Positions 13,212 to 28,886 of a stretch of 64,000 bases of DNA are shown here, in pieces. Numbering within the stretch: the stretch's first letter is position 1; the number at the start of each line of letters is the position of its first letter. This stretch comes from a virus. Where the stretch lies: IMG/VR virus record IMGVR_UViG_3300022752_000025, positions 68,274 through 132,273 of that record; one strand, written 5' to 3'. Position numbers and translations under genes: made by a program. The notes below the pieces were generated by a model. The model was not told the DNA's origin. It ran no database searches and saw only the letters and a list, made by a program, of their open reading frames with translations.

Positions 13212-15983
13212 TTACACTCTTGGGATATTTCCTGTATTTTGAACTAAATTATATTTAATAGAAATATCCTCTTTAGAATCATCGCTTGTTTTAAATGATA
13301 TTAAACCTGTGCAAATTGGGACATTATATTCTTTAAATTTATTTAAATTTTGAGGTGAATATGGACTAATTTTATTTATTTTATTTCCTGCATAGGCTGA
13401 ATATTTGTCTCCATAATATAAATTATCTGGTATATGAGCCGCAGAGATCTTGAATGTTTTAACGCTTGCCGATGTATATCCTGTAATTTCAAAAGTTTCT
13501 GGATTTACTAATACTCCACTTTTTAAAGTTTCACTAATAGCCGAACCTAGATATGGATTTCTTCCAGAGCCGTATATATTATTTCCTGTATAAAAATAAA
13601 ATCCAGTATATGAAATTGGTAAAAGTAAATCATAAGTTTTATCTGTTTCTAAATATAATTCTGGATATCTTTGATTTTGGAATCTATAGTAAACTTTTGC
13701 TCCACTTCTTTCTTGTGGAATATCAAATTGGCTAAAAACTTTAGTTCTTAATACTAAATTTAAACTTTGTTCTCTTAAATTATCTCCACTGATCATCATT
13801 TTGCCTGTGATTGAATTTGGCGAAACGGAAAAATATTCTATACTTGGATCAATATTATTTTCCTTCACACTAAATTGAATTAATCTATAATTCCCGTTGA
13901 TTTTATTATAATTTGGTTCAATAACTTTTAATCCACTTACATCACCTTTAATAGCTAAAGGCCTATGATGCGATAAGTTTGTTTGCAAGAAATTATATTT
14001 AAGGCCTTTTTTTAATATTATTTCATCTAATTTTTTATATTTATTTGAAACTGTATCGTAGAATCTATATCCAGATCCACTTAAAAAGTTAACTGAAACA
14101 TATTCTTGCTTTGAGTCTTCTGTGTTAAAAGTTGGTAAATTATTTCTTTGTAATTTAAAAAGTAAATCTAATTGTACTGCTCCAGTTATTGGATTAAAAT
14201 TATTTTTCTGATAAACAAGTTGACCATTTTGATTTTTAAATAAACCAGAATAACCTTCTCTATATTTAAAATATTGTCTCTCAGTATTTAAATTTGAAAC
14301 ATAGGTATCTGGTTCTACATTAACAGTAATGTTTGCTTGACCTTGATAAGAAGGTAATGCTTTAGTTTTTGATGCAAATTTTGCTTTTAATGTAGAAGTT
14401 TCTGAAATTATATTTAAACCTGTTGCATAAGCTGTAAGCCCAAATACTGGACTAGATGTAGGTAGATTACCATTATTATCATATTTTAACAATGATCCTT
14501 CTAAATTATACTCTAGATTATCTCCAGTGCCTTGAATTACGCCTAATTGATTTTCTCTAAAAGATGAAAAATAGTAATCATCAAAAAATATTTTAGTATT
14601 ATTTCCCAAAGCCTTTGTAGAAGCTGAAATTAATTTAGATTTTACTAAAAAGCTTAATTTACCATCTTCTAGCATTGTGCCTGTAACTTCATTTAAAATT
14701 AAACCGCCAGTATTTGTATAGATTTTTGTTCCATTAGCTAAAGTAGAGGAATGAGTTCCAGTCTTTAGATAATTAATTCTAAAATTAATATCCACGCTAC
14801 TATTTTTACCTATTGTATAATATTTTACAAGTTGGCCAGATAAAGGATGATTATTTGGATAAACAAATTGAGTTATTTTAAATTTATCATCAATTACTTC
14901 AAGATTTGAAGAAGCAGAAGAGATATAAAAATTCTTTGGTAAATCTCCAGTATTAAATACAGAAAATGAATAAACTTCTCTATCGTTTAAAGTGCCAGAT
15001 TGATTTATAGTATAATTATTATTATATAACTTGTATAATCCAGTATTATTTGGTTGAAAATATGGTCCATATCCTAAATCAAAAGAATTTGGAGAAGTTC
15101 CTGTTGGAATCCAGGAAACAGTTCCGCTAAATACAAATATTCTACGAATTGTTTCGTCTGATGATTTAACTTTTATAGGATCATCATATTGTAAATTTCT
15201 TTCGCCCCTCATTTCTGTATAAACAAAAGAACATCTATTCGTTACACACCATTCAATATTTGGAATATTATCTTGAAAATATATTTTATTATAAGAAATT
15301 AATTGCCCAGTTTTTGTGCCAGAGATAATACCGCTAGTTTGTGCGTCCGCATAGTATTCTGATAATCCAAAATTTAATAATTCTTTTTTCGTCCAATAAT
15401 TTCTTCCTACGCTTCCTAATTGATATCCACTATGATCAACTAATTCGAAAATATTTTTATATGGAGATATAAATGGTGCCCATGGAAGATCATTTCTAAC
15501 GAATCCGCAAATTTTAAATCTTTGGCCAGAGGAAATTCCTTCTGGATATCCAAAACCATCTTCTTTTCCATAAGGAAATCCTGCGTCAGGTTCAAAATTA
15601 GCTCTTATAGTCCTATCCAAGCAATAAGCTTGACCATTTACTGTAGTATATGGATCTTTATCTAAAGGATAATATGTCTTGGCAAATTTAATTTTTAATC
15701 CAGATGCTCTATAAGTTTTTAACCATCCAGATTCATACCATAATGAATTATAATTATCTTTTCTGTAAGTTTTTAAATCATTTAAATAATTTTGATTATC
15801 TCTTTTAGATATTTCGCTACCTAAAATTACTTTAGAATTGTTTAACAAATCTTTAAATTTTGGTGTTAAATATTCTTTATCTGCATATTCATAATAAGTA
15901 TTATTAATAGCAGATGCTAAATCTAAGTCTTTAGCTTTTGTTTGACCGCTAAATCCTTTTCTATATCCAGTAATTTTATTCAT
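13212..15983 (-). CDS. large (923 aa) putative virion structural protein
   Basis: Long beta-rich ORF with recurrent SG/TG dipeptides; ATG lies 8 nt after the predicted splice site of the upstream ribozyme. Confidence 0.7.
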   Translation of the reverse strand: MNKITGYRKGFSGQTKAKDLDLASAINNTYYEYADKEYLTPKFKDLLNNSKVILGSEISKRDNQNYLNDLKTYRKDNYNSLWYESGWLKTYRASGLKIKFAKTYYPLDKDPYTTVNGQAYCLDRTIRANFEPDAGFPYGKEDGFGYPEGISSGQRFKICGFVRNDLPWAPFISPYKNIFELVDHSGYQLGSVGRNYWTKKELLNFGLSEYYADAQTSGIISGTKTGQLISYNKIYFQDNIPNIEWCVTNRCSFVYTEMRGERNLQYDDPIKVKSSDETIRRIFVFSGTVSWIPTGTSPNSFDLGYGPYFQPNNTGLYKLYNNNYTINQSGTLNDREVYSFSVFNTGDLPKNFYISSASSNLEVIDDKFKITQFVYPNNHPLSGQLVKYYTIGKNSSVDINFRINYLKTGTHSSTLANGTKIYTNTGGLILNEVTGTMLEDGKLSFLVKSKLISASTKALGNNTKIFFDDYYFSSFRENQLGVIQGTGDNLEYNLEGSLLKYDNNGNLPTSSPVFGLTAYATGLNIISETSTLKAKFASKTKALPSYQGQANITVNVEPDTYVSNLNTERQYFKYREGYSGLFKNQNGQLVYQKNNFNPITGAVQLDLLFKLQRNNLPTFNTEDSKQEYVSVNFLSGSGYRFYDTVSNKYKKLDEIILKKGLKYNFLQTNLSHHRPLAIKGDVSGLKVIEPNYNKINGNYRLIQFSVKENNIDPSIEYFSVSPNSITGKMMISGDNLREQSLNLVLRTKVFSQFDIPQERSGAKVYYRFQNQRYPELYLETDKTYDLLLPISYTGFYFYTGNNIYGSGRNPYLGSAISETLKSGVLVNPETFEITGYTSASVKTFKISAAHIPDNLYYGDKYSAYAGNKINKISPYSPQNLNKFKEYNVPICTGLISFKTSDDSKEDISIKYNLVQNTGNIPRV

Positions 15984-15990
15984 GATTTTT

Positions 15991-16115
15991 AGGCCTAGCT
16001 TTGTCTAGACTTCTTGTTGCTCTTTTTTGCCTCATTTCTGAACCCTGATGTTCTCAATGAAAAAGCCGGTTATCTAGATGTTAAAACCTTTCTGGTGGTT
16101 TCTTCTTGCTCTTCT
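15991..16115 (-). ncRNA. predicted 125-nt exon released as circular RNA by permuted group I splicing
   Basis: Lies between the intron terminal G (16116) and GCCU|AAAAAUCAU (15991), which pairs with the IGS; folds as a long hairpin; inference. Confidence 0.55.
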
Positions 16116-16349
16116 CATGTATGTTATTTTTCATTTTTTAAAATGAAAACTCGATGTCTCCATCGAGATCGGACTATATCTTGCTTACTGACTTTCGTTA
16201 GTAAGACTGGGTGCTCGTGTCTCTGTTATTGTTACGGTAACTCAAGAGTTAGTCTCTACACCTTCATGCTTCGTTTTTACCGTGAAGCAGGCTTGGCTCG
16301 GTATAATCCACTTGGGACTTCCACCGAATTCACCCAGTATGCCCATCAT
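16116..16349 (-). ncRNA. group I intron ribozyme core (P3-P9, with P7.1 insertion), free-standing and apparently circularly permuted
   Basis: P3 ACTGGGTG(16338-31)/CACCCAGT(16213-06); P GAATTCGGTGGAA; Q ATACCGAGCCAAG; R GAAGGTGTAGAGACTA; S AAGATATAGTCC(16182-71); P8 with GAAA loop; P9 CTCGATG-GAGA-CATCGAG; ends AATAACATACATG. Confidence 0.9.
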
Positions 16350-16354
16350 CTTTT

Positions 16355-16376
16355 AAAGAACTATAACCTATTACAC
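16355..16376 (-). promoter_or_regulatory. GTGTAA phage promoter motif followed by boxA-like AGTTCTTT
   Basis: GTGTAA-N8-AGTTCTTT, identical in spacing to the tmRNA leader (28859-28880). Confidence 0.6.
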
Positions 16377-16401
16377 TAAATAATATAATGTGAAATTATT
16401 T

Positions 16402-17394
16402 TTATATTTTTTCTTTATCACCAGAAAACATTATTTGTAGTTCTTCTTTTATGGAGTTATTTATTTCTGATTTTATGAAAGATTTCATTTCGTCTAACTC
16501 ATCAAATGAATAAAGAATATTATCTTGATATAGCCTATATAGATTTATTTTTTCAAGAATATCACACTTATTAAAAATTAACTTATTGACCCCAGAAATT
16601 CTAATTGCACGAATTAATTTTGTTAAATTCAACCAATTAACTAATCTTTTTCTACCAGTTGTAGAACCAAACTCCTGCCCAATATCAATAATCATATTCA
16701 ATTCTGGATCATTCCAGAGATATTCTGGAAATAATGGATCTACTCCACTTTTTGTATCGTAAATTTTTGCAACGCCAATTATATCTCTAATTTTTTTTGG
16801 AGAAAAACCTAAAGAGCAAGCAGAGTATGGAAGAGTTTCGCTACTAGTAACATAAGGATAATTTCCATAATTTATATCTAACCAAAAGCTTTGAGCTCCT
16901 TCACAAAGGATTTTGCCATAAAGATTTCCATCCCAAATATATTTTTTATCAATATAATCTTTTGCTAATTTTCCAGTTCTTAGCATTTTATCTGCATAAG
17001 CTGGGGCGATACCTTGTCCAGTGGTCCCAAGCTTTGGCTTTAAAAATTTAAGATCATATTGAATATGTCTTTCTGTGATGATATTTGCGTTTGAACTTAC
17101 TTTAATTAAAGAAGTATCAAATCCATTTTTTTCAAGGTATTCTATTTCGTCAAAAAATTTATCTACATTAATAACGCAATTTGGTCCAATAACACTAATT
17201 TTATTTTGAAATATACCGCATGGTATTATATGCGTTTTATATTTTTTATTATTTAAATAAATAGTGTGCCCAGCATTTGGCCCGCCATTCCAACGACAGA
17301 CCATATCGTAATCTTTAGATATAGTATTAGTAATTTTACCTTTTCCTTCATCTCCCCAACATAATCCAAAAATAATATCAACTAGTTTTATCAT
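16402..17394 (-). CDS. purA: adenylosuccinate synthetase (short form)
   Basis: WGDEGKGK, GGPNAGHT, GTTGQGIAPAY, EGAQ, YPYVTSS, GSTTGRKR, NKCD. Confidence 0.95.
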   Translation of the reverse strand: MIKLVDIIFGLCWGDEGKGKITNTISKDYDMVCRWNGGPNAGHTIYLNNKKYKTHIIPCGIFQNKISVIGPNCVINVDKFFDEIEYLEKNGFDTSLIKVSSNANIITERHIQYDLKFLKPKLGTTGQGIAPAYADKMLRTGKLAKDYIDKKYIWDGNLYGKILCEGAQSFWLDINYGNYPYVTSSETLPYSACSLGFSPKKIRDIIGVAKIYDTKSGVDPLFPEYLWNDPELNMIIDIGQEFGSTTGRKRLVNWLNLTKLIRAIRISGVNKLIFNKCDILEKINLYRLYQDNILYSFDELDEMKSFIKSEINNSIKEELQIMFSGDKEKI

Positions 17395-17629
17395 TATTAT
17401 TTGATTTTAATTCATTTAAATAATTTTCTAAATTTTCTTTAGCTTTTGTACAATAATCTTGTCCTGATTTGCCACAACAATTTTTAAATTTTGTTAAAGT
17501 GAGTGGACACCAAGTATTCCTAGGGACTTTATTTAAAACTCTAACTATTGGAGAAAATGGGGTAGCTCTGGCGTAAGGATTATCTGGTAGTTTTATATTT
17601 TTTACATTCTCGTTTACATTTTCATTCAT
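17378..17629 (-). CDS. SEC-C-like motif protein
   Basis: KVPRNTWCP...KFKNCCG. Confidence 0.6.
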   Translation of the reverse strand: MNENVNENVKNIKLPDNPYARATPFSPIVRVLNKVPRNTWCPLTLTKFKNCCGKSGQDYCTKAKENLENYLNELKSNNNDKTS

Positions 17630-28857: not shown

Positions 28858-28886
28858 TGTGTAAATATTAAAAGTTCTTTCTAATT

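What the first reader, a model, noticed from the sequence alone, without database searches (positions are those of the whole stretch)
15991..16115. Back-splice junction creates an in-frame Arg-rich 28-aa ORF on the predicted circle
Seen: ATG at 16035 runs exactly 15 codons to the predicted splice site (15991), and the exon start (16115) runs 13 codons to TAG (16076-16074). The junction falls on a codon boundary and gives MRQKRATRSLDKARP|RRARRNHQKGFNI*, with both halves Arg/Lys-rich. A weak AGGG lies upstream of the ATG. Unspliced RNA would give MRQKRATRSLDKARPKNHE*, which overlaps the next gene's start. The exon also folds as a long hairpin (TCTAGA, GCTTTT/AAGAGC, TCATT/AATGA, GAAC/GTTC). Inference: the circle may be a stable circular mRNA for a protamine-like or ribosome-binding peptide, or a structural RNA with a chance ORF (frame match alone has 1-in-3 odds).
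Basis: inference. Interest (0 to 1): 0.75.

Follow-up and report, generated by a model that had tools for sequence, protein, structure and literature searches.

The report
Chance ORF on predicted ribozyme-made RNA ring
The 28-codon reading frame is really there but looks like a chance by-product: the 125-base piece it lies on is a conserved folded RNA that a rewired self-splicing (group I) ribozyme of a freshwater phage should cut out as a ring, and related phages keep the fold and the cut site but not the reading frame.

Summary
Observation confirmed. ATG 16035 runs 15 codons to 15991, and 16115 runs 13 codons to TAG 16076-16074.

The junction is well founded. An Rfam group I ribozyme (RF00028, 69 bits against a cut-off of 50) ends at G16116. 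Its guide sequence (16344-16341) pairs with GCCU at 15994-15991, which lies downstream of the ribozyme. In 24 of 25 unique family units from lake phages the guide and this downstream site change together; 0 of 5000 permutations match that.

The coding reading fails.
- Of 5 unique orthologous cargos, only 2 keep a junction-crossing ATG frame. L070 and L034 stop after 8 codons, and L138 has none.
- Between those two, 15 of 17 changed codons are non-synonymous, with no third-position bias.
- 9 of 26 cargos have such a frame against 8.4 expected, and 32% of shuffles of this cargo make one.
- All five cargos fold alike with compensatory changes, and the ATG sits in a stem.

Best reading: a structured non-coding cargo of a natural "self-targeting" ribozyme. 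Ring formation is inferred, not shown; the RNA data were uninformative. This scan has noted similar stand-alone or permuted phage group I ribozymes on other DNA.

The parts
16370..16376 (-). GTGTAAT, promoter-like motif just upstream of the ribozyme
   Evidence: Every family unit that keeps its 5' flank has GTGTAA (GTGTAT in L124) 23-45 nt before P3. In the window, 10 of 16 GTGTAAW sites have the ATG of an ORF of 50 or more codons 0-23 nt downstream, and two more precede the tmRNA and this ribozyme. The 7-mer itself is not enriched (16 found against 14.5 expected). Promoter function is inferred.
16345..16369 (-). 5' leader with a small hairpin whose loop carries AGTTCTTTAAAA
   Evidence: The loop motif is conserved in groups A and B before the guide sequence, and sits in the P5 loop in groups C and D. 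Its function is unknown.
16341..16344 (-). Internal guide sequence GGGC. The first G is invariant and lies 9 nt before P3.
   Evidence: It pairs with GCCU at 15994-15991. Across the family, 24 of 25 unique units have at least 4 contiguous pairs with a downstream T|AA site, and 0 of 5000 permutations reach the observed sum.
16116..16344 (-). Contiguous group I ribozyme core (P3 to P9.1), ending in the terminal G (omega-G) at 16116
   Evidence: RF00028 scores 69 bits against a cut-off of 50. In the RNAalifold consensus of 24 unique ribozymes, 24 of 47 pairs show compensatory change. A terminal UG is present in all 24, and conservation stops after it.
15991..16115 (-). 125-nt cargo ('exon'), predicted to be released as a ring by joining U15991 to A16115
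   Evidence: Bounded by omega-G and the P1 target. Five orthologs share the same fold. Ring formation is not shown.
16083..16102 (-). Cargo hairpin 1: stem GAAACC/GGUUUU with the conserved CAGAA in its loop
   Evidence: The stem sequence differs in all five orthologs but always pairs: UAUUUUC/GAAAAUA, GUUGAC/GUCGAC, GUCGA/UCGGC and GAUC-UUUGU/GCGAA-GAUC.
16004..16078 (-). Cargo hairpin 2, a long arm with four stacked stems
   Evidence: Outer stem: UCUAGAU/GUCUAGA here, UCUGGU/ACCAGA in L132, UCUAUCU/AGAUAGA in L070 and L034. Inner stem: UCAUU/AAUGA here, UCUUUG/CAAAGA in L132, UUCAUC/GAUGAG in L070 and L034.
16033..16035 (-). ATG of the 28-codon frame, lying in the 3' strand of the inner stem of hairpin 2
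   Evidence: Paired in the minimum-energy fold. The same column reads CAAAGA in L132 and AAAGA in L138, so there is no ATG there.
16074..16076 (-). TAG that ends the junction-crossing frame
15991..15994 (-). P1 target GCCU. The predicted cut lies between 15991 and 15990, followed by AAAAAUC and then AUG.
   Evidence: In 23 of 24 units the matching site is followed by AA.
13212..15983 (-). 923-aa ORF of no known family, starting 7 nt after the predicted cut
   Evidence: No PHROG match and only a sub-threshold Pfam match. A paralog follows the second ribozyme copy in the same genome.

Best explanation
The 28-codon frame is an accidental by-product of a purine-rich, structured non-coding RNA.

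What is really there is a self-contained phage RNA gene with four parts in order:
- a promoter-like GTGTAAT;
- a complete group I ribozyme that starts with its guide sequence;
- a 125-nt folded cargo;
- the guide's target, GCCU, 7 nt before the start codon of a large gene of unknown function.

The strand of P1 that normally sits upstream has moved downstream of the ribozyme. Ordinary group I chemistry should therefore run as follows.
1. A free guanosine or GTP cuts after U15991. This releases the downstream mRNA with a short leader.
2. U15991 attacks the bond after G16116. This closes the cargo into a 125-nt ring and frees the linear ribozyme.

Shown here: the ribozyme fold, the guide/target covariation, the conserved cargo fold, and the lack of conservation of the reading frame.

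Inferred: transcription start, cleavage, ring closure, and any function of the ring.
For: Ribozyme.
- RF00028 scores 69 and 66.6 bits on the two copies in this genome, against a cut-off of 50.
- In the consensus of 24 unique ribozymes, 24 of 47 pairs show compensatory change.

Downstream P1.
- The invariant guide G lies 9 nt before P3.
- There are 10 different guide/target pairs, each matched to its own partner: GGGC/GCCU, GGCC/GGCU, GGUCC/GGACU, GGCCUUAU/GUAAGGCU, GGCCUU/AAGGCU, GCCUU/AAGGU, GCCCU/AGGGU, GCCC/GGGU, GCCA/UGGU and GCCU/AGGU.
- 24 of 25 unique units have at least 4 contiguous pairs. Own pairing averages 4.64 pairs against 2.43 for cross pairing, and 0 of 5000 permutations reach the observed sum.
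- A matching site lies downstream in 24 of 24 units, but upstream in only 10 of 24, and there without a common place.

Cargo as a structured RNA.
- Five orthologs fold independently into the same closing stem, hairpin 1 and four-stem hairpin 2, with different sequences in the stems.
- 13 of 19 consensus pairs show compensatory change.

ORF not conserved.
- A junction-crossing ATG frame is present in 2 of 5 unique orthologous cargos.
- Between WIN and L132, 2 changed codons are synonymous and 15 are not; differences by codon position are 12, 11 and 11.
- 9 of 26 unique cargos have such a frame, against 8.4 expected.
- The second copy in the same genome has no ATG frame.

Autonomy. In L132 and L138 a terminator-like hairpin and a fresh GTGTAA motif separate the unit from the structural gene.

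Feasibility. [quoted passage not shown]
Against: - No RNA evidence for the cut or the ring. The four lake metatranscriptome runs I laid cover only the ribozyme core of a relative and show no joints.
- The fold energy of this cargo alone is not significant (z = -1.21).
- P1 here is only 4 bp, and I saw no P10 pairing by eye.
- L132, the closest ortholog by cargo sequence, has C instead of U at the cut site. That unit may be impaired, or the chemistry may differ.
- The frame in register with the joint is stop-free for 34-58 codons in all five orthologs. Taken one at a time this is within shuffle expectation (P = 0.03-0.30), but it is a pattern I cannot fully dismiss.
- Most genes of this phage lack a Shine-Dalgarno sequence (15 of 56 have an SD-like 4-mer), so a weak ribosome-binding site is no argument against translation.
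- The cmscan tool reported no Rfam hit on the same DNA, unlike.
Confidence: 0.7

Rival explanations
1. The ring is a small circular mRNA. Ribosomes start at AUG 16035, read across the joint and make the basic 28-aa peptide.
For: - The frame exists and lands on a codon boundary.
- L132 keeps a 38/41-codon basic frame in the same register and shares KRAT..DK..|RR.
- The junction frame is stop-free for at least 34 codons in all five orthologs.
- The phage mostly does without Shine-Dalgarno sequences.
- From recall, not checked here: E. coli ribosomes can translate engineered RNA rings.
Against: - L070, L128 and L034 stop after 8 codons, before the joint. L138 has no start in that frame.
- Between WIN and L132, 15 of 17 changed codons are non-synonymous, with no third-position bias.
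- The ATG is base-paired, and its stem partner co-varies. The same column has no ATG in L132 or L138.
- Family-wide, 9 of 26 cargos have such a frame against 8.4 expected.
- The peptide has no Pfam match.
- L132 has C at the cut site.
Confidence: 0.05
2. The ribozyme's real job is to process or gate the downstream structural-gene mRNA. P1 forms over the purine-rich stretch just before the start codon, and the cut leaves a message with an 8-nt leader. The cargo is only a scaffold that brings the target to the guide, and any ring is a by-product.
For: - In 16 of 25 unique units the target lies 4-12 nt before the start codon of a large ORF. Both copies in this genome precede paralogous ORFs.
- GTGTAAW sites in this phage sit 0-23 nt before start codons, so short leaders look normal here.
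- The closing stems of cargos A and B bring the two cargo ends together.
- A first-reader note on this window proposed the same idea (e1-6146822).
Against: - In group D (7 unique units), L122, L132 and L138 the target is not next to a start codon. A new GTGTAA motif, and in L132 and L138 a terminator-like hairpin, lie between them. The unit is kept without an mRNA to process.
- The conserved terminal G and the conserved cargo loops (CAGAA, GGYUUUUUC) are not needed for cleavage alone.
Confidence: 0.2
3. It is a conventional intron. The 5' splice site lies upstream in the purA-like gene, after ATGTTT at about 16423, so splicing would replace the last 7 codons by RRARRNHQKGFNI*.
For: - GGGCAT can pair with AUGUUU, 79 nt upstream of the guide, and the join would be in frame.
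- The RF00028 match as placed by the search runs from 16460.
Against: - That pairing has three consecutive G.U pairs.
- The homologous upstream site in L070, L034 and L132 does not match their guides.
- Only 10 of 24 units have any upstream match.
- The purA-like ORF is complete, with its own stop and a full-length Pfam match.
- A promoter-like motif lies between the gene and the ribozyme.
Confidence: 0.03

Closest known systems
[quoted passage not shown] PMC10415121 and PMC13542726 seen as search listings and abstracts only.)
   Same: Same order of parts: an intact ribozyme that starts with its guide sequence, then the cargo, then the guide's target at the 3' end of the cargo. Two transesterifications join the cargo ends. 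P1 alone is reported to suffice, with no P10 needed.
   Different: Those constructs are man-made, use the Tetrahymena IC1 ribozyme, and carry long coding cargos with an IRES. This one is natural and phage-encoded, with a different ribozyme (resembling Azoarcus/Anabaena tRNA introns by my recall only), a 4-8 bp P1, and an 86-150 nt non-coding structured cargo. Activity has not been tested.
Canonical phage and bacterial group I introns (Rfam RF00028)
   Same: The core fold P3-P9, the terminal G, and a G.U pair at the cut site.
   Different: This one interrupts no gene. The 5' strand of P1 lies downstream of the 3' splice site, so splicing should circularise the flanked piece instead of joining two exons.
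[quoted passage not shown]
   Same: A natural group I ribozyme whose splicing passes through a circular exon-containing RNA.
   Different: There the intron is split by permutation around mitochondrial genes, and the product restores the ND5 coding sequence. Here the core is contiguous, only P1 is rewired, the cargo is a small non-coding RNA, and the setting is a phage.
[quoted passage not shown]
   Same: Stand-alone self-splicing ribozymes in bacteria that interrupt no ORF and release a small ring of unknown function.
   Different: A different ribozyme class and chemistry (branching). In those, the domains themselves are permuted.
Lariat-capping ribozyme GIR1 (RF01807)
   Same: A group I-derived ribozyme that sits in front of an mRNA and creates its 5' end.
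   Different: No RF01807 match at either ribozyme copy. The best match in the genome is 9.6 bits, elsewhere, against a cut-off of 100. This ribozyme keeps a standard guide, P1 and omega-G.

Membership tests
Group I intron ribozyme (RF00028) | Conserved catalytic core P3-P9 | tested here: met
   69 and 66.6 bits against a cut-off of 50. 24 of 47 consensus pairs show compensatory change in 24 unique sequences. The cmscan tool showed no hit; I cannot explain that discrepancy.
Group I intron ribozyme (RF00028) | Guide sequence forming P1 with a G.U pair at the cleavage site | tested here: met
   24 of 25 unique units have at least 4 contiguous pairs starting from the invariant G.U, and 0 of 5000 permutations reach the observed sum. 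The partner strand lies downstream, not upstream. L132 has C at -1.
Group I intron ribozyme (RF00028) | Terminal guanosine (omega-G) at the 3' splice site | tested here: met
   UG lies 54-58 nt after P7' in all 24 aligned ribozymes, and conservation ends there. This is positional evidence only; it has not been mapped.
Group I intron (as an intron) | Interrupts a host gene whose two exons are joined by splicing | tested here: not met
   The upstream ORFs are complete (purA-like here, phoH-like at copy 2) with their own stops. There is no conserved upstream P1 partner.
Permuted intron-exon (PIE) / circularly permuted group I | The ribozyme core is split into a 3' half and a 5' half that flank the exon in swapped order | tested here: not met
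   The core is contiguous from the guide to omega-G (229 nt). Only the substrate strand of P1 is relocated.
STS-type self-circularising ribozyme (engineered) | Order: guide-first ribozyme, then cargo, then target. A covalently closed product. | tested here: inconclusive
   The order of parts is met. A closed product was not shown, since the RNA contigs had no joints.
Protein-coding small ORF / circular mRNA | Start, frame and stop are kept in orthologs, with synonymous-biased change | tested here: not met
   2 of 5 orthologs keep a junction-crossing ATG frame. 2 changed codons are synonymous against 15 non-synonymous, and differences by codon position are 12, 11 and 11. 9 of 26 cargos have such a frame against 8.4 expected.
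Lariat-capping ribozyme (RF01807) | Match to the GIR1 model | tested here: not met
   No match at either copy. The best match in the genome is 9.6 bits, at another place.

The most novel reading that the evidence does not exclude
In at least some members of this phage family the ribozyme-made ring is read by ribosomes. Candidates are the basic peptide of this window and of L132, the MKISKLIGHWSA... frame kept across the joint in 4 of 6 group D cargos, and the stop-free 126-nt ring of L137. That would make these natural circular mRNAs in a bacterial virus.
Probability: 0.07. Interest if true: 0.85.

Novelty: new variant of a known kind. Interest (0 to 1): 0.5.

Why it matters
The ORF itself does not matter: it behaves like noise.

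The unit it sits on does matter. It is a natural group I ribozyme wired like the constructs RNA engineers invented to make circular RNA. It is present twice in this phage genome and in at least 30 unique units from lake viromes, and the guide/target covariation shows that the rewired P1 is under selection.

If the ring is confirmed, three things follow.
- Phages would be shown to make small structured circular RNAs on purpose.
- The rings would be compact natural cargos whose function could be tested.
- The field would gain short, P1-only self-circularising ribozymes.

My five literature searches found the engineered version, the coral mitochondrial case and the permuted group II case, but no natural phage or bacterial group I example. 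Earlier agents of this scan reported the same gap on other genomes. That is not independent evidence.

Tried and rejected
**Rfam cmscan.** The window, the 14500-17500 stretch and loci L003/L004 gave no group I hit. The same family scored 69 bits through the genome search. I therefore do not treat the cmscan blanks as evidence.

**Cultured-phage records.** blastn of 15900-16450 found no match.

**Genome contigs.** The family pattern had 0 matches, so there is no host clue.

**RNA data.**
- The look-up of sequencing runs listed 6 RNA runs, each holding about 5-6% of the sampled words.
- I laid 4 of them (X15, X16, X17, X19) at a likeness of 85.
- Their contigs cover only 16147-16346, the ribozyme core, with 12 differences. 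Their loose ends match an L152-like relative.
- There were no joints and no cover of this cargo.
- The contigs stop 57, 63 and 72 nt past 16147 in three runs. That is 24-39 nt into that relative's cargo, and not at one place. This says nothing for or against a ring, and DNA carry-over is not excluded.

**First covariation test.** It used a poor site rule: the first T before AA in the 22 nt upstream of the first long-ORF ATG. Only 5 of 19 combinations reached 4 pairs, because the rule picks other TAA sites in AT-rich leaders or an earlier in-frame ATG. I replaced it with the any-T|AA-site test, giving permuted guides the same freedom.

**L122.** My first target, a 9-bp pairing in a different register, was replaced by the site in the invariant-G register. 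It remains ambiguous.

**More group A orthologs.**
- A protein-based scan found only the contig of L034.
- A junction-specific DNA pattern found only known loci.
- The ORF test therefore rests on 5 unique cargos from 3 lineages.

**Rows dropped.**
- Of the 30 unique units, five are cut by contig ends (L135, L138, L142, L145, L149) and were left out, leaving 25.
- One search also needed 205 nt upstream, which left 24.
- One search used the 24 unique ribozymes that have both ends.

**Other checks.**
- P10 pairing, and a P1 extension over AUCAU suggested in note e1-6146822: looked at by eye only. Neither is convincing or conserved.
- Pfam on the 28-aa peptide: nothing.
- The 923-aa ORF: no PHROG match, and only a sub-threshold Pfam match.
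- Supplementary files of papers were not opened. None bears on a claim here.
I sent it again with the field in place.

Full report
**What is in the sequence**

The window is the last 64 kb of a 132-kb, AT-rich virus record with a CheckV completeness estimate of 86%. It carries three tRNAs and a tmRNA.

On the minus strand the order of parts is:
- a complete purA-like ORF (17394..16402; Pfam PF00709, E = 3e-79);
- GTGTAAT at 16376-16370;
- a stretch richer in G+C;
- the 125 nt of the finding (16115..15991);
- AAAAATC;
- the ATG (15983) of a 923-aa ORF of no known family.

ATG 16035 plus 15 codons ends at T15991, and without splicing it reads on to ...KNHE*. 16115 onwards reads RRARRNHQKGFNI*. 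On a ring of 16115..15991 the only ATG frame of 10 or more codons is the 28-aa one, and it crosses the joint.

**Is the junction credible?**

The G+C-richer stretch is a group I ribozyme. RF00028 scores 69 bits here and 66.6 bits on a second copy, 90% identical, elsewhere in the same genome; the cut-off is 50. The cmscan tool showed nothing on the same DNA, which I cannot explain.

A core pattern retrieved 17 IMG/VR loci and 24 metagenome stretches. Together with the two own copies these give 43 loci and 30 unique units, all from freshwater or lake material as far as the run labels go. None was found in 185,579 prokaryote genomes or in cultured-phage records.

An RNAalifold consensus of 24 unique ribozymes recovers P3, P4, P5, P6, P8 and P9, with compensatory change in 24 of 47 pairs. 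Conservation ends at a terminal UG.

In every unit that keeps its 5' flank, GTGTAA (GTGTAT in L124) lies 23-45 nt before P3, and an invariant G lies 9 nt before P3. Starting from that G, the guide pairs with a site 140-200 nt after P7' that is followed by AA. The guide/target pairs found were:
- GGGC/GCCU (here);
- GGCC/GGCU;
- GGUCC/GGACU;
- GGCCUUAU/GUAAGGCU;
- GGCCUU/AAGGCU;
- GCCUU/AAGGU;
- GCCCU/AGGGU;
- GCCC/GGGU;
- GCCA/UGGU;
- GCCU/AGGU.

I tested this with candidate sites defined without reference to the guide: any T followed by AA, 100-260 nt after P7'.
- 24 of 25 unique units reach at least 4 contiguous pairs.
- Over 11 distinct guide 6-mers, own pairing averages 4.64 pairs against 2.43 for cross pairing.
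- 0 of 5000 permutations reach the observed sum.
- The exception is L132, whose homologous site has C instead of U at -1.

An earlier, badly designed site rule gave only 5 of 19.

Upstream, only 10 of 24 units have any match of 4 or more bp, and these share no common position. For this window the upstream match (AUGUUU in the purA-like ORF, with three G.U pairs) would even splice in frame. However, the homologous sites in L070, L034 and L132 do not fit their guides.

The substrate strand of P1 has moved downstream of the 3' splice site. [quoted passage not shown] It is not a split-core permutation, because the core is contiguous.

**Is the reading frame real?**

The units fall into groups by cargo. 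Group A consists of this window, L132 (=L146), L138, L070 (=L128, L143) and L034, giving 5 unique cargos. Two further scans found no more.

*Conservation in orthologs.*
- WIN keeps a junction-crossing ATG frame of 28 aa.
- L132 keeps one of 38/41 aa in the same register.
- In L070, L128 and L034 the ATG frame stops after 8 codons, before the joint.
- L138 has no start in that frame.

*Codon-level signal.* WIN and L132 were compared over 26 codons around the joint.
- 11 residues are identical.
- 2 changed codons are synonymous and 15 are non-synonymous.
- Differences by codon position are 12, 11 and 11, the same as in the two other frames.

*Chance.*
- The frame in register with the joint is stop-free for 34-58 codons in all five cargos. 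Each value is reached by 3-30% of shuffles of the same cargo; for this window the figure is 30%.
- These cargos contain only 18-24% T.
- Across all 26 unique cargos, 9 have a junction-crossing ATG frame of 20 or more codons. Shuffles predict 8.4, and 32% of shuffles of this cargo have one.

*Other points.*
- The second unit in the same genome has no ATG frame at all.
- AGGG before the ATG means little either way. Only 15 of 56 long ORFs in the window have an SD-like 4-mer, against a background of 9%.
- The peptide has no Pfam match.

**What the 125 nt are instead**

Folded one by one, the five group A cargos give the same architecture at the same positions:
- a short closing stem between the two ends;
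- hairpin 1 (positions 14-33), whose loop carries the conserved CAGAA;
- a long hairpin 2 (positions 38-112) made of four stems.

The stem sequences differ but stay complementary:

| Stem | This window | L132 | L138 | L070 | L034 |
|---|---|---|---|---|---|
| Hairpin 1 | GAAACC/GGUUUU | GAUC-UUUGU/GCGAA-GAUC | UAUUUUC/GAAAAUA | GUUGAC/GUCGAC | GUCGA/UCGGC |
| Hairpin 2, outer | UCUAGAU/GUCUAGA | UCUGGU/ACCAGA | not in the minimum-energy fold | UCUAUCU/AGAUAGA | UCUAUCU/AGAUAGA |
| Hairpin 2, inner | UCAUU/AAUGA | UCUUUG/CAAAGA | UCUUU/AAAGA | UUCAUC/GAUGAG | UUCAUC/GAUGAG |

RNAalifold on a plain MAFFT alignment finds compensatory change in 13 of 19 pairs.

L132 and L138 have no ATG in that column.

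Fold energies alone are modest: z = -1.21 here, and -0.94 to -2.95 in the others.

Group B cargos, including the second copy in this genome, have an unrelated sequence. They fold as a rod that pairs their two ends, with compensatory change in 13 of 30 pairs.

**Mechanism, and what is inferred**

Shown:
- the ribozyme fold;
- the rewired, co-varying P1;
- the conserved cargo fold;
- the non-conserved frame.

Inferred:
- transcription from the GTGTAAT motif. 10 of 16 such sites in the window sit 0-23 nt before the ATG of an ORF of 50 or more codons, and two more precede the tmRNA and this ribozyme, but the 7-mer is not enriched;
- guanosine attack after U15991;
- closure of the ring at G16116|A16115.

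The cut would leave the 923-aa message with an 8-nt leader.

In L132, L138, L122 and group D the target is separated from the next gene by a new GTGTAA motif, and in L132 and L138 also by a terminator-like hairpin. The unit is therefore kept for its own sake there. That is why I rank 'cargo ring is the product' above 'mRNA processing only'.

RNA contigs from four lake metatranscriptomes hold the ribozyme core of an L152-like relative but show no joints and no cover of this cargo. That is uninformative.

**Comparison and novelty**

Membership as a group I ribozyme is met. Membership as an intron is not, because no gene is interrupted. It is not GIR1.

The closest things in print that I found:
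- the engineered STS constructs;
- the coral mitochondrial back-spliced ND5-717 intron (PMC6545197; abstract read);
- the natural permuted group II ring-makers (PMC8637638; passages read).

Five searches returned no natural phage or bacterial group I example.

This scan has already noted stand-alone or permuted phage group I ribozymes on other genomes, and a sibling note covers this very stretch. Those are unchecked AI notes and add no support.

**Verdict**

The finding as a coding claim is of low interest. The element underneath it is a new variant of a known kind and is worth a bench test.

Noticed in passing
window 16348-16359 (-), window 28866-28886 (+); P5 loops of L047, L084, L127 and others: The motif AGTTCTTT(A/G)AAA turns up in three settings: in the loop of the hairpin before the guide (groups A and B), in the P5 loop (groups C and D), and between a GTGTAAA motif and the 5' end of the tmRNA gene. 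It may be a shared protein-binding or tertiary-contact motif.
   Followed up: no
L137:11617-11868 and the 126 nt downstream of it: This cargo is 126 nt long, with no stop in the junction frame and an in-frame ATG, so the frame on the ring would be endless. Its sister L127 (129 nt) does have a stop.
   Followed up: partly
Group D cargos (L089, L134, L126, L136, L084, L125): 4 of 6 unique cargos keep a junction-crossing frame, MKISKLIGHWSA...GRLLPKLFEI, although their lengths differ by 12 and 15 nt. L084 (+8 nt) has a stop and L125 has lost the ATG.
   Followed up: partly
L132 and L138, about 30 nt after the cut site: A GC-rich hairpin plus a T run (terminator-like), then a new GTGTAA motif before the structural gene. 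L132 also has C instead of U at the cleavage position.
   Followed up: partly
window 16402-17394 (-): The best PHROG for the purA-like ORF is phrog_1211, named '2-aminooxy adenylosuccinate synthetase' (E = 8e-65). Whether it is a PurA or a PurZ-type enzyme was not examined.
   Followed up: no
G000:C1:21795-22026 (-) = L002:1468-1698: A second copy of the ribozyme (90% identical) lies in the same genome, outside the window, between a phoH-like ORF and a paralog of the 923-aa ORF. Its guide/target pair is different (GGCC/GGCU), and its 138-nt rod-like cargo is unrelated.
   Followed up: yes
window 14500-17500; L003, L004: search_rna_families (cmscan) lists no RF00028 match, while genome search scores 69 and 66.6 bits on the same DNA.
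   Followed up: partly
window, GTGTAAW sites: 10 of 16 sites lie 0-23 nt before the ATG of an ORF of 50 or more codons. This suggests a phage promoter that gives very short or no leaders. Only 15 of 56 long ORFs have an SD-like 4-mer.
   Followed up: partly
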